Virus record (IMG/VR): IMGVR_UViG_3300043080_000191
Reading direction: 5' to 3' (one strand)
DNA: 64,000 nt
From: a virus
Shown: positions 20,232 to 27,746 of the stretch, one piece after another
How the letters are laid out: every line of letters starts with the position of its first letter
Position numbering within the stretch: the first letter of the stretch is position 1
The notes under the pieces: model-generated
Seen by the model: the letters and a program-made list of their open reading frames with translations, nothing else
What the model was told of the DNA's origin: nothing
The model's database searches: none
Position numbers and translations under genes: made by a program

Positions 20232-23200
20232 ATGACAGATAAGACTAAATTTAGACCGGTCAATGGTACAGAAGAGCAAATCTTAAGCGCTTCTAAAACG
20301 CCAGGATATGTTTATTTTGCAACTGATACCGGAAGAATTTATTTAGACTTAGATCAAAATACTCGTATTTCTATGGGCGGTAGTGGTGTTGCTTTATTAT
20401 ATGGTAAAGCTGATACCATCAGTCCAGATGAACAAGGTTTTTACACTTTGAGTTTTGATGATCTTGAGGATGATGTAACTCCAAAAGAAGGAGATCTTAT
20501 TTTAAATAAAGATGGAATCTTCTATCGAGTTATGGAAGCGGATTCTGATTCACGCTCTATGCTTTGCGCAATTCTCGCAGTAAGCGGAAGTGGTGGATCA
20601 GGTGGCGGTGGTACATCTAGTTTATCTAAGAAAATTGGTATTACCATTCAGCCATTGTCAACAAGTAATCTAATCAATGGTCAGTCTTTTGGAGTATACT
20701 TTACTGCAAATTCTGGAGTTGATTATGATGGCTCTGTTATGGATGATAAATTAATAGTTCATTGGACTCTATATGAAAAAGTTGATTCAACTTATATTAA
20801 ATATAGTGAAGGCCAAATGGATGTTAACTCTGGTGAATTAACAGAATTTGAGTTAGGCGAAAAATTAAGAGAATCAACATCATCTCGTTTAACTATGTAT
20901 GCTAGTGGTATTAATAGTGGTGAGAGTGCTTCTAAGAGCGTTGATGTTGTTACTGGACAGTTATCATTAACTCAGTCTCAAAATTTCTCAGCAACCGCAC
21001 GTTATACACCAGATAATGTTAAGTTACAGTGTAATGCAATCGGAAGTATGAATAAAATTCTTGATTTCTATTTTGATGGAACTTTAGTTGAATCTAAAAA
21101 ATTAACTTCTTCATCTGAAAACTTCCAGAGCTATACTGTAAGTTCTAGTTATGCAACACATGGTTATCATTCAGTTCGTATTGAATTATATCAAGCTATT
21201 GTCGTAAGTAATACATGGTCTAGAGGATTGATGGTAGATCCAATAGAATTTGAAATTGGTGTATTCGCAACAGGTAATACAGATCCGGTAATTTGGTTGG
21301 GAACTTATAATGAAGAGTATTATAATTATGATACAATTCAAATTCCATTCTTGGTATACGATCCTTCAAGCACAGCCTCTGCGCACATCGTATTAAGAAA
21401 AAATGGTAAGGAAATCGCAAGTTCTCCTCGTGATATTGATACTACTACAATGAGTTCTTGGAATATCTTTGAAATTGCAGATGCAGATTTGGATATGGTA
21501 AATAGATATTCTATTTCTTGCGGCGACATAACAAGAGATATTACCTTTACTGTAGTTCAAGACCCGAACAGAACAATGGAAGTTGTTAAACAAGAGTCCT
21601 TGAAATTGAACTTTGACGCAAAGGGTCGTTCAAATAGTGAATCCGCAGTTAATCGTGAAACATGGACTACTGATGATGGTTCTATTAAAGCTACATTTAA
21701 GGATTTCAACTGGTATAATAATGGTTGGGTTCTTGATGATGACAATAATACTTGTTTACGTATTAGTAATGGAGCAGAATTTTCTATTCCTATTGGAACA
21801 TTAACTTATGGTTCAACTGATATTTCTAAACAGTCTAACTCTATTGAAATTCAATTCAGAGTTCGTAATGTACAGGATTACTCAAGCTTGATTCATAACG
21901 TAACACGTTACAATGGTGATGATAAATTCTATACAGCATTTAAAGCGCAGTCTTACTATACTAACTACGATTCATTCCTTCATTATTACCTTCCTCTTTA
22001 CAATGCAACTGTAAGTGAAGATCAACAGGTAGATTATGATGATCTTGAGTTTAGTAGAGTTCAGAAAGAGATTAGCTTAAATCGAGTTGCTTGTAGTTAT
22101 TACTCAGGTGACGAAAGTGGAGCTGTAGGAATCTGTCTTGGACCGCAAGATGCATTCTTTTCTAATGGAACAAATACTGTAAACGTAAGTTATGTTGAGG
22201 ATCAGTTAATCAATATTTCTATGGTATACTCTCATGGTAGCGACCAGATGATGTATATTTATATTAATGGTGTTTTAACTGGTGTTATTAAATCAACAAT
22301 CGGTCTATTCACAATTAACTCAAATAAGATTGTATTTAATTCTAATTATTGCGATATTGACTTATACAAAATTAGAGTTTATAATACAGACTTAAATGTA
22401 AATGATATTGTTACTAACTACTCAGTAGATTTAAAAAATGTAACTATTTACGATCAAAATAAACTTGCAGAAGAAAATACTGCAATTCATGAATATCAGT
22501 TTAAATATGATAACATGATTAAGTATAATGATGAACATCCAAGTGCTCCTTTAATGCCTTATATCATTTTTGATACAAGTGCAACTGGAAATAATGATAA
22601 GCTTTCTTATTCTAAGAAAACTAAAATTAATATTGGTGTTGAATTCATTAATACCGGTCTTGATAGAGCATATGCTAATGGCGAGTTAGAGAAATATGCT
22701 ATTGAAGATGGTTTATGTACCGCTAATTCTAGCGCAGAAGAAAAAGAAGCAGCTGTTAAGAAATATTATCAGCATCATTGCCCAAGCTTTATTGGCGATA
22801 ATATCAGCATGGCTGTTCAAGGAACATCTTCAGAGTTCTATCCAAGACGTAACTATAAATTAAAGACTAAGAATACAGATAAAGATGGTGTAGATAGAAT
22901 TCATATCTTCTTACATAAAGGTCCATTCGCTGCAGATTATGCAGAGGATTCAGAAAATACTCGTCAGAAATTCTTCTACATGGATAACTATACAAATGGT
23001 ACAACTAAGTTCACTATGAAGATTGACTACATGGAGTCTTCTGGAACTTATAATATGGGCTTTACAAGCTTAATTCATAATGGTTATTCTAAACATCCTT
23101 TAAAAGATTACAACGATGCGGGAGCATTCCAGAAGCAAGTTGAAAATTATGATAAAGCTACAAGCTTTAAAGAGGGTGAAACATATTATCAGTATGATGC

Positions 23201-27746: not shown

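What the first reader, a model, noticed from the sequence alone, without database searches (positions are those of the whole stretch)
20232..27746. 2.5-kaa receptor-binding protein ending in Flg_new (Listeria-Bacteroides repeat)-like modules and BspA-type leucine-rich repeats
This is the largest gene in the window. The N-terminal fiber-anchor motif is followed by a Gly/Ser linker and a long central region. The C-terminal ~450 aa switch to two '...Y.F.GW...YTFYAVFT'-type modules and then 'IGS.AF.GC..L..F.FPGTV..I...AF.GC' BspA/LRR_5 repeats.

These are bacterial cell-surface adhesin modules. They are likely recruited here as the host-recognition tip, and they are a probable hotspot for host-range switching.
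Basis: partly seen in the sequence, partly recalled or inferred. Interest (0 to 1): 0.55.

Follow-up and report, generated by a model that had tools for sequence, protein, structure and literature searches.

The report
Giant phage tail fibre, kinase-like core

Summary

The tip is the least conserved part. Relatives 94% identical over the body fall to about 29% identity from about aa 2140 onward. dN/dS rises from 0.02 (N-terminus) to 0.33 (tip).

A tail-fibre role is supported indirectly. The body is homologous to the hankyphage DGR target and to a Heliusvirales protein downstream of the tape-measure and Dit genes. The N-terminal domain is shared with the neighbouring 1407-aa ORF, which matches a solved tail fibre.

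The kinase-like motifs are invariant across the 50 family members and the 20 distant representatives aligned; the C-lobe matches 843 clusters of mostly giant proteins. This architecture is already noted, unstudied, in the DGR literature. I file it as a new non-DGR variant of a known kind. Binding, virion location and enzyme activity are untested.

The parts
20151..20185 (+). Terminator-like hairpin (15-bp stem, then a T run) between the upstream 565-aa gene and this gene
   Evidence: sequence read
20212..20234 (+). Ribosome-binding site AAAGGAG (20212-20218) and the likely true start codon ATG at 20232
   Evidence: the homologue consensus and the paralogous N-terminus both begin at Met13
20232..27746 (+). 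Coding sequence of the giant modular protein (2504 aa from ATG 20232; the ORF is open from 20196)
   Evidence: identical protein P0001 on 6 JGI contigs
20232..20579 (+). N-terminal beta domain (aa 13-128), proposed anchor to the tail. It is paralogous to the N-terminus of the 1407-aa ORF at 30768.
   Evidence: 33% identity over 95 aa, E 1.8e-4 within the window; pLDDT 70-80. No Pfam or phage-database match.
20580..20621 (+). Gly/Ser linker (aa 129-142)
   Evidence: pLDDT below 50
20628..21590 (+). All-beta region (aa 145-465), probably several beta-sandwich domains
21591..22400 (+). ConA-like / Laminin_G-type lectin jelly roll (aa 466-735)
22788..23675 (+). CotH kinase-like domain, N-terminal part (aa 865-1160), with family-variable insertions at about aa 893-935 and 976-1040. 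Invariant motifs: VQGTSS..YPRRNYKxK (aa 874-890) and KxDxMESSG (aa 942-950).
   Evidence: hhalign to the N-lobe of phage G gp353, 96.2%, E 2e-9; invariant columns
23676..24365 (+). Tyr-rich, poorly conserved insertion that splits the CotH-like domain (aa 1161-1390)
   Evidence: no Pfam hit
24366..25175 (+). CotH kinase-like domain, C-terminal part (aa 1391-1660), the most conserved stretch of the protein. Candidate catalytic loop D1427-SRGK-N1432 (nt 24474-24491) and candidate metal-binding motif Y-D1455-L-D1457 (nt 24558-24566).
   Evidence: Pfam CotH 20.2 bits native and 23.8 bits (equal to the cut-off) spliced; 12 of 13 members hit. hhalign 99.4% to gp353 and 98.9% to Pfam-CotH proteins. 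Conservation 0.86-0.96.
25404..25985 (+). Central beta-solenoid, LRR-like (aa 1737-1930)
   Evidence: Regular short strands at pLDDT above 90 and an LxxLxL pattern in the sequence. No profile support. gp353 has Pfam LRR_EndoS and LRR_Zer-1 after its CotH domain. Inferred.
26451..26759 (+). Flg_new / InlB-B-repeat-like module 1 (aa 2086-2188). The recombination/divergence breakpoint among relatives falls here.
26760..27065 (+). Flg_new-like module 2 (aa 2189-2290)
   Evidence: homologous to module 1; no Pfam hit of its own
27066..27743 (+). BspA-type LRR_5 tip (aa 2291-2516, about 5 repeat units), the hypervariable C-terminal cassette
30768..34991 (+). Neighbouring 1407-aa tail-fibre-like ORF that shares the N-terminal domain. 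It is not conserved in the closest relatives.
   Evidence: (PDB 8vbx_R 'Tail fiber (gp47)', E 1.3e-8), 19

Best explanation
The gene most likely encodes a giant beads-on-a-string tail fibre or adhesin of a large uncultured phage (relatives lie on contigs up to about 200 kb) that carries a PolC/DnaE-type polymerase.

Proposed layout, N to C:
- a small beta domain shared with the neighbouring fibre gene, which docks the protein on the tail (inferred);
- a flexible Gly/Ser linker and beta-sandwich spacers;
- a ConA-like lectin domain, which would give low-specificity glycan contact (inferred from fold);
- a CotH kinase-like domain split by insertions, whose catalytic-type motifs are invariant across the 50 family members and 20 distant representatives aligned, and which therefore very probably performs a conserved chemical or nucleotide-dependent step (inferred, activity unknown);
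- a central LRR-like solenoid;
- two Flg_new beta-grasp modules and a BspA-type LRR, which form the distal ligand-binding tip.

The tip, from about aa 2140 onward, is exchanged or diversified among otherwise near-identical relatives. It is therefore the likeliest determinant of which cell surface is recognised. In the hankyphage branch of the same superfamily, the equivalent position is a C-type-lectin tip diversified by a DGR.

Shown here: the domain identities, the conservation gradient, the breakpoints and the homologies. Inferred: virion location, receptor binding and enzyme activity.
For: Tip identity:

Tip variability:
- Mean pairwise identity is 0.52 for the body, 0.37 for the Flg region and 0.27 for the tip over 116 homologues.
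- P0055/P0056 are 0.936 identical over the body and 0.286 over the tip, with a step at aa 2090-2190. The same step appears in P0055/P0058 and P0028/P0034.
- Against the 96%-identical L001, identity is 0.98-1.00 in the first 1000 aa and 0.81-0.87 in the last 300.
- dN/dS is 0.02, 0.12, 0.15 and 0.33 from N-terminus to tip.

Tail context:
- The body is homologous to the hankyphage p00 6.7-kb ORF, which carries the DGR variable repeat at its 3' end and follows the tape-measure, hub and minor-tail genes.
- The protein is colinear over five BLASTP segments, including the C-terminus, with a Heliusvirales protein that follows the tape-measure and Dit genes and precedes holin and endolysin.
- The N-terminal domain is shared with ORF 30768, which matches PDB 8vbx 'Tail fiber (gp47)'.
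- The upstream 968-aa ORF hits PHROG 1887 'tail protein'.

Core:
- CotH is supported by Pfam on 12 of 13 members and by hhalign at 99.4%, 96.2% and 98.9%.
- Phage G gp353 has the same order, Laminin_G_3, CotH (60 bits), then LRRs.
- The C-lobe matches 843 clusters at 50% identity, nearly all giant proteins, and 16 of 20 distant representatives carry LRR_5.

Literature:
- Giant phage or DGR proteins combining CotH, a carbohydrate-binding domain and LRRs are noted but unstudied (PMC8008677, PMC5758913, 10.1101/2024.11.15.621889, 10.1101/2020.04.01.020958).
Against: - There is no direct evidence that the protein is in the virion or binds a host receptor.
- Most neighbouring genes have no Pfam or PHROG function, so the tail module is inferred from a few hits and from distant homologues in unrelated small phages.
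- The N-terminal anchor has no match to any annotated fibre in the phage collection.
- The AlphaFold models are confident as monomeric globular domains, not as the trimeric shafts typical of classical fibres.
- No pair was found in which a similar tip sits on a divergent body. Cassette exchange therefore cannot be told apart from replacement by unsampled alleles.
- A kinase-like enzyme has no obvious ATP source outside the cell.
Confidence: 0.68

Rival explanations
1. The protein is chiefly an enzyme carrier. The CotH kinase-like domain is the selected function: it would phosphorylate or otherwise modify a host-envelope component, virion proteins during assembly (as CotH does for spore-coat proteins), or host proteins after delivery. 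On this view the lectin, LRR and Flg_new modules only target it to a substrate.
For: - The CotH-like C-lobe is by far the most conserved segment (0.86-0.96 column conservation against 0.25-0.45 at the tip).
- QGTSS..PRRNxKxK, D-x4-N and YDxD are invariant in 50 family members and in 20 distant representatives at 24-49% identity.
- CotH D228 and D251 are catalytic in Bacillus subtilis (PMC7821199).
- Roux et al. proposed host-signalling manipulation for the DGR-linked relatives (10.1101/2020.04.01.020958).
Against: - The solved CotH structures were never reached by sequence.
- The residue-level equivalence to D228 and D251 is inferred, not aligned.
- Extracellular binding modules and a variable tip fit an adsorption organelle better than an injected effector.
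- This rival is compatible with the best explanation and may be part of it.
Confidence: 0.2
2. The protein is a virion-surface adhesin for the environment rather than for the host bacterium. It would bind mucin or other gut glycans, or non-host cells, to hold the phage where hosts are found, in the manner proposed for Ig-like capsid decorations. Tip variation would then track habitat, not host range.
For: - BspA-type LRRs, Flg_new and CBM40-like lectins are typical of bacterial adhesins to animal surfaces.
- An Ig/Hoc-like 643-aa ORF lies next door.
Against: - In hankyphage and the Heliusvirales phage the homologue sits in the distal-tail gene slot.
- The N-terminus is shared with a tail-fibre homologue.
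- The equivalent tip in hankyphage is DGR-diversified, a mechanism shown for tropism switching in Bordetella phage BPP-1 (established knowledge).
Confidence: 0.09
3. The gene is a bacterial cell-surface adhesin on a bacterial chromosome or carried as prophage cargo, not a phage structural gene.
For: The C-terminal modules are classical bacterial surface-protein domains. The closest non-family hits are bacterial LRR_5 proteins from Ruminococcus, Oscillospiraceae and Acidaminococcus.
Against: - The gene and its relatives lie on 78 IMG/VR viral contigs of 50-400 kb.
- In the window it is flanked by giant ORFs with sparse tail-related hits, and the minus strand carries a phage replication module.
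- Many orthologues use phage-type stop-codon recoding.
- The start context shows an RBS and a cytoplasmic-type N-terminus; no signal peptide was looked for.
Confidence: 0.03

Closest known systems
Hankyphage (Bacteroides phage p00) DGR target and related 'group 3 / category f1 / PC_00012' giant variable proteins, which combine CotH-like, carbohydrate-binding and LRR motifs
   Same: - Size above 2000 aa.
- The body is homologous by BLASTP: E 2e-16 over aa 249-757 and E 2e-15 over aa 1391-1879, at 22-24% identity.
- Laminin_G_3 followed by a CotH-like core.
- A variable ligand-binding C-terminus.
- A gene position after the tape-measure, hub and minor-tail genes.
   Different: - The tip here is two Flg_new modules plus a BspA-type LRR_5, not a C-type-lectin fold.
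- No variable repeat/template repeat pair lies within nt 18000-40000. No reverse transcriptase appeared among the ORFs scanned with PHROGs or Pfam; the window was not searched for one exhaustively.
- Variation arises by allele replacement or divergence rather than mutagenic retrohoming.
- The phage is a large one (contigs up to about 200 kb) with a PolC-type polymerase, not a 43-kb siphophage.
Bacillus phage G gp353
   Same: The domain order is the same: Laminin_G_3, then CotH (60.3 bits), then LRRs including a weak LRR_5. hhalign to the window family gives 99.4% for the C-lobe and 96.2% for the N-lobe.
   Different: - Its CotH domain is compact (aa 640-977), without the roughly 230-aa Tyr-rich insertion.
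- No Flg_new module was detected.
- The host is Bacillus.
- It has not been characterised experimentally either.
Bacillus CotH spore-coat kinase (Pfam PF08757; PDB 5JD9/5JDA)
   Same: There is remote sequence homology. A D-x4-N motif and a downstream YDxD motif are invariant, at a spacing (28) similar to CotH D228 and D251 (23).
   Different: - The Pfam score is borderline for the window protein.
- The domain is split by insertions and embedded in a 2.5-kaa protein predicted to be extracellular.
- No known substrate repeats of the CotB/CotG type are present.
- Activity is untested.
BspA-type LRR surface proteins (TpLRR 6mlx, BACOVA_04585 4fs7, PcpA 4cp6) and the internalin B B-repeat (2y5p)
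   Same: Fold and profile membership of the last roughly 430 aa.
   Different: Those are bacterial surface proteins anchored to the cell. Here the modules form the C-terminal tip of a phage protein. Identity is only 21-23%, and no recent donor was found.
Modular phage tail fibres with exchangeable C-terminal receptor-binding domains (for example T-even gp37/gp38 and lambdoid side fibres; from established knowledge)
   Same: A conserved N-terminal attachment part, a sharp drop in identity at a junction, and a hypervariable distal domain.
   Different: No trimeric shaft or intramolecular chaperone was detected. The domains look monomeric and globular, and the protein carries a conserved enzyme-like core.

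Membership tests
BspA-type leucine-rich repeat (Pfam LRR_5, PF13306) | Profile match above the curated gathering score | tested here: met
   49.7 bits (whole protein) and 52.7 bits (C-terminal 516 aa) against a cut-off of 27.7
BspA-type leucine-rich repeat (Pfam LRR_5, PF13306) | LRR solenoid fold superposable on solved BspA-type LRR proteins | tested here: met
Flg_new / Listeria-Bacteroides repeat (PF09479; InlB B-repeat) | Profile match above the curated gathering score | tested here: not met
   Module 1 scores 22.4 bits, E 1.4e-4, against a cut-off of 27. Module 2 has no hit. Two homologues (P0098, P0103) carry a precomputed PF09479 hit, and 3 of 20 distant representatives hit at E below 1e-3.
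Flg_new / Listeria-Bacteroides repeat (PF09479; InlB B-repeat) | Beta-grasp fold of the InlB B-repeat, with the Y.F.GW ... FYA.F motif | tested here: met
CotH kinase family (PF08757) | Profile match above the curated gathering score | tested here: inconclusive
   20.2 bits in the native 500-aa segment; 23.8 bits, equal to the cut-off, once the insertion is spliced out; 12 of 13 family members hit, best E 2.4e-7. Transitive links: hhalign 99.4% and 96.2% to gp353 (Pfam CotH 60.3 bits) and 98.9% to 10 Pfam-CotH proteins.
CotH kinase family (PF08757) | Atypical protein-kinase fold as in PDB 5JD9/5JDA | not tested
CotH kinase family (PF08757) | Catalytic Asp residues equivalent to B. subtilis D228 and D251 (PMC7821199) | tested here: inconclusive
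   D1427-x4-N1432 and D1455/D1457 are invariant in 50 plus 20 sequences and align with D..GKN and YDxD of Pfam-CotH proteins. No residue-level alignment to B. subtilis CotH could be made.
CotH kinase family (PF08757) | ATP-dependent phosphotransfer activity | not testable with these tools
   Requires biochemistry.
Phage tail fibre / receptor-binding protein | Encoded in the tail or baseplate gene module | tested here: inconclusive
   Neighbours with tail-related hits: 968-aa ORF to PHROG 1887 'tail protein'; 1407-aa ORF to PDB 8vbx 'Tail fiber (gp47)'. Other neighbours have no hits. Homologues in p00 and NatCom_3357 lie just after the tape-measure and hub or Dit genes.
Phage tail fibre / receptor-binding protein | Conserved N-terminal attachment part and variable, exchangeable C-terminal part | tested here: met
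   N-terminal paralogy with ORF 30768
Phage tail fibre / receptor-binding protein | Present in the virion and required for adsorption | not testable with these tools
   The phage is uncultured.
DGR variable proteins | C-terminal variable repeat with a cognate template repeat and a reverse transcriptase nearby | tested here: not met
   No variable repeat/template repeat pair in nt 18000-40000. The only long repeat (33131/34046) is an in-frame domain repeat without adenine-specific mismatches. No reverse transcriptase appeared among the ORFs scanned, but not every ORF of the window was scanned.

The most novel reading that the evidence does not exclude
A very large, uncharacterised superfamily of giant phage tail proteins (843 clusters at 50% identity) carries a catalytically competent CotH-type kinase-like enzyme next to a lectin and behind an exchangeable binding tip. 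Adsorption, or fibre assembly, by these phages would then include a phosphotransfer or nucleotide-dependent step on a cell-envelope or virion substrate. That would be an enzymatic tail-fibre activity of a kind not described for any phage.
Probability: 0.3. Interest if true: 0.8.

Novelty: new variant of a known kind. Interest (0 to 1): 0.5.

Why it matters
Large phages from gut and other animal-associated metagenomes are mostly uncultured and their hosts unknown. This gene gives a defined, modular candidate for the specificity determinant, the last roughly 380 aa. That segment could be expressed to fish for hosts, or swapped to retarget phages.

The work also links three things that were previously separate:
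- the unstudied CotH-containing DGR targets of hankyphage-type prophages;
- Bacillus phage G gp353;
- a very large family of giant proteins in phages that use standard, TAG-recoded or TGA-recoded genetic codes.

Across that family the invariant kinase-like motifs stand against a freely changing tip. This makes the question 'what does a CotH domain do on a phage tail?' directly testable with point mutants.

Tried and rejected
- **Near-identical DNA in the phage collection.** None found. The phage is not in INPHARED.
- **crAss-like origin.** I first suspected this from the giant ORFs, low GC and recoded relatives. I rejected it because the split polymerase is PolC/DnaE-type, closest to Phass-1 and to Enterococcus and Staphylococcus phages at about 40% identity.
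- **Reaching the solved CotH structures by sequence.** This failed with the full-family profile, the spliced-domain profile, gp353 and a CotH-clade profile.
- **DGR hypothesis for the tip.** No variable repeat/template repeat pair was found. The 118-nt repeat in ORF 30768 is an ordinary domain repeat.
- **Recent bacterial donor of the tip.** Only generic LRR_5 similarity was found.
- **P0131 (39% identical).** It looked like a stand-alone cassette but is a 5'-truncated orthologue at a contig edge.
- **N-terminal 'anchor' as a known Pfam or phage-fibre motif.** No hit.
- **Central LRR by profile or PDB sequence search.** No hit. It stays an inference from the model.
- **Nguyen et al. 2016 (CotH structure paper).** It is not held in the paper library.
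- **Sigma-70-type promoter scan.** No enrichment over shuffles.
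Full report
**Observation**

A single + strand ORF runs 20196..27746 (2516 codons) and is the largest in the window; the next largest is 1814 aa.
- a 15-bp terminator-like hairpin (20151-20185) closes the upstream gene;
- AAAGGAG lies at 20212-20218;
- the consensus of 50 homologues begins MxDKxxF;
- the paralogous N-terminus of ORF 30768 aligns from Met13.

Residue numbers below are ORF numbering; subtract 12 for the mature protein.

**The C-terminal modules**

Pfam LRR_5 is clearly met: 49.7 bits, E 4.4e-13, cut-off 27.7, at aa 2361-2447. 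A 50-sequence family profile hits only BspA-type LRR structures in the PDB (4fs7, 4gt6, PcpA, TpLRR).

For Flg_new the curated threshold is not met. Module 1 scores 22.4 bits against 27, and module 2 has no hit. Three other results support the assignment at fold and motif level:
- profiles of the two modules recognise each other through the Y.F.GW...FYAVF motif (hhalign 95.5%, E 1.6e-8);
- two homologues carry a precomputed PF09479 hit.

**Relatives and the variability of the tip**

The protein database holds an identical protein (P0001, six JGI contigs up to 176 kb). It also returned 182 matches at E <= 1e-5, of which the 120 listed are mostly 2.4-2.85 kaa proteins, many on contigs of 150-240 kb. 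IMG/VR gave 78 loci.

Against 119 homologues, identity peaks at aa 1401-1500 (82%) and is lowest at aa 2201-2516 (30-36%) (finer bins).

The closest relatives (L001, L067; 96% amino-acid identity) are colinear at 93% DNA identity across window 18205-30912. Their protein identity is 0.98-1.00 over the first 1000 aa and 0.81-0.87 over the last 300. Nei-Gojobori estimates against L001 are as follows.

| Region | dN/dS | Note |
|---|---|---|
| aa 1-1000 | 0.02 | |
| aa 1001-2085 | 0.12 | |
| Flg_new modules | 0.15 | |
| LRR tip | 0.33 | dN about 30-fold higher than in aa 1-1000; dS about 2-fold higher |

In an alignment of 116 full-length homologues, mean pairwise identity is 0.52 for the body, 0.37 for the Flg region and 0.27 for the tip. 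Some pairs with body identity of 0.9 or more have tips as low as 0.29. P0055 and P0056 run at 0.88-0.98 up to about aa 2090, fall to 0.54 at about aa 2140, and sit at 0.26-0.40 from aa 2190 onward. P0055/P0058 and P0028/P0034 show the same step.

That is the signature of a replaceable distal cassette whose junction lies in or after Flg_new module 1. I found no case of a shared tip on divergent bodies. The donors are therefore unsampled, and exchange cannot be formally separated from extreme local divergence.

A search with the last 328 aa found only generic bacterial LRR_5 proteins at 24-38% identity (Ruminococcus, Oscillospiraceae, Acidaminococcus, Spirochaetota). The best hit, P0131, turned out to be a truncated orthologue.

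**What the 'long central region' is**

Pfam also gave a weak CotH hit at aa 1371-1473 (20.2 bits against a cut-off of 23.8). Following this up produced five results.
- tblastn found Bacillus phage G gp353 (E 1e-11 over aa 1398-1634). gp353 has Laminin_G_3, then CotH at 60.3 bits (E 3e-16, profile positions 2-277 of 322), then LRR_EndoS and LRR_Zer-1, then a weak LRR_5. This is the same order of parts.
- hhalign of the window family against gp353 gives 99.4% (E 2.6e-21) for aa 1397-1635. It gives 96.2% (E 2e-9) for aa 865-1082 against the start of the gp353 CotH domain.
- hhalign against a profile of ten Pfam-CotH proteins gives 98.9%.
- With the insertion spliced out, 12 of 13 family members hit Pfam CotH (best E 2.4e-7), and the window protein reaches exactly the cut-off.
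- The domain is therefore complete but split, by variable insertions at about aa 893-935 and 976-1040 and by a Tyr-rich insertion at about aa 1161-1390.

Several motifs are invariant in the 50-member alignment and in 20 distant representatives at 24-49% identity:
- VQGTSSEFYPRRNYKLK (aa 874-890);
- KIDYMESSG (aa 942-950);
- YD(1427)SRGKN(1432);
- YD(1455)LD(1457)TQLG.

B. subtilis CotH is inactivated by D228Q and by D251A (PMC7821199). The D-x4-N...D arrangement and its spacing here are consistent with those residues. I could not make a residue-level alignment to CotH itself, nor confirm the kinase fold, because the fold searches were exhausted and swamped by other domains.

After the CotH-like domain the model shows a regular short-strand solenoid (aa 1737-1930) with an LxxLxL pattern. 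I call it LRR-like by inference only.

**How widespread the family is**

An exhaustive phmmer search with aa 1386-1660 against 1.84 billion cluster representatives found 843 proteins at E <= 1e-3, 346 at <= 1e-10 and 132 at <= 1e-30. Nearly all are 2.0-2.96 kaa, with the domain in the middle of the protein. Of 20 distant representatives, 16 carry LRR_5 (best E 3.7e-89).

**Is it a tail fibre?**

The indirect evidence is as follows.
- The body (aa 249-757 and 1391-1879) is homologous to the 2245-aa ORF of Bacteroides hankyphage p00. That ORF carries the DGR variable repeat at its 3' end and follows the tape-measure, baseplate-hub and minor-tail genes.
- A 1673-aa protein of the Heliusvirales phage NatCom_3357 is colinear with the window protein in five BLASTP segments. 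These include the Flg_new and LRR_5 end (its own LRR_5 scores E 2e-14). It lies after the tape-measure and Dit genes and an 800-aa ORF, and before holin and endolysin.
- The N-terminal domain (aa 13-103) is 33% identical to the N-terminus of the neighbouring 1407-aa ORF (E 1.8e-4 within the window). That ORF matches PDB 8vbx chain R, 'Tail fiber (gp47)', at E 1.3e-8.
- The 968-aa ORF upstream hits PHROG 1887 'tail protein'.

The literature already notes this architecture as unstudied:
- DGR category f1 targets of about 2000 aa with CotH and Laminin_G_3 (PMC5758913);
- Bacteroides 'domain group 3' proteins above 2000 aa with CotH active-region motifs, carbohydrate-binding motifs and LRRs (10.1101/2024.11.15.621889);
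- PC_00012 (10.1101/2020.04.01.020958).

The window protein is a non-DGR member. No variable repeat/template repeat pair occurs within nt 18000-40000. The C-type-lectin tip is replaced by Flg_new and BspA-type LRR modules.

**Mechanism proposed**

Shown: the domain identities, the order of parts, the conservation gradient, the breakpoints and the homologies.

Inferred:
- the N-terminal domain docks the protein on the tail alongside the 1407-aa fibre;
- the lectin and the terminal LRR bind cell-surface ligands, and the exchangeable tip sets specificity;
- the invariant CotH-like site performs a conserved chemical step, either during assembly in the cytoplasm (where ATP is available, as for spore-coat CotH) or on the envelope.

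My confidence in 'tail fibre or adhesin with an exchangeable LRR tip' is about 0.68. My estimate that the CotH-like domain is an active enzyme that matters for infection is about 0.3.

**Verdict**

The added value here is threefold: the lectin and split CotH core, the link to the DGR-target family and to phage G gp353, and quantified tip mosaicism. I rate it a new variant of a known kind, with interest 0.5.

Noticed in passing
L005, L010, L016, L023, L027-L035, L041-L048, L056-L062, L070-L077 (gene at about 10001-17800 of each locus); L014, L021, L007, L047: In most IMG/VR relatives the orthologous gene is one continuous frame but holds in-frame stop codons. Most loci have 10-45 in-frame TAG codons, most often opposite Gln of the window protein. 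Four loci have 4-20 in-frame TGA codons, mostly opposite Trp. The window gene and loci such as L001-L003, L012 and L017 have none. One phage lineage therefore contains members that use the standard code, a TAG-recoded code and a TGA-recoded code. No tRNA gene lies in the window.
   Followed up: partly
window 44735-50182 (- strand): A PolC/DnaE-type DNA polymerase is split into three ORFs (48806-50182, 47302-48429, 44735-46006). A homing-endonuclease ORF lies between the second and third pieces (46256-47203), and an HNH endonuclease lies nearby (51736-52902). This suggests introns or inteins in the polymerase gene.
   Followed up: no
window 30768-34991 (+): The neighbouring 1407-aa tail-fibre-like ORF shares only its N-terminal roughly 90 aa with the gene under study. 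Its aa 488-615 match a solved tail fibre (PDB 8vbx_R). It contains an in-frame 118-nt domain repeat (33131 and 34046, 74% identical). Beyond about nt 30912 it is largely unmatched in the closest relatives L001 and L067, with only short blocks at 83-91% DNA identity and one 1.1-kb block at 87% in L067. It may be the more readily exchanged fibre of this phage.
   Followed up: partly
window 18030-18227 (+), inside ORF 17407-18393: Three tandem 66-nt (22-codon) repeats at 62-80% identity lie in the 328-aa ORF two genes upstream. They look like a repeated structural motif of another fibre-like protein.
   Followed up: no
window about 38600: Transcription switches from the + strand (giant ORFs of mostly unknown function, a few with tail-related hits) to the - strand (replication module: NrdD, PolC pieces, Dda-like helicase, RecJ, DnaB, Sak4). 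The GC skew changes sign at the same point.
   Followed up: no
window 56-17308 and 28077-30008 (+): Most of the giant neighbouring ORFs have no Pfam or PHROG function. The 1772-aa and 1814-aa ORFs have no hit at all. The 858-aa ORF hits only a PHROG of unknown function. The 968-aa ORF hits a 'tail protein' PHROG (E 3.4e-10). The 643-aa ORF hits only a weak Hoc-like PHROG.
   Followed up: partly
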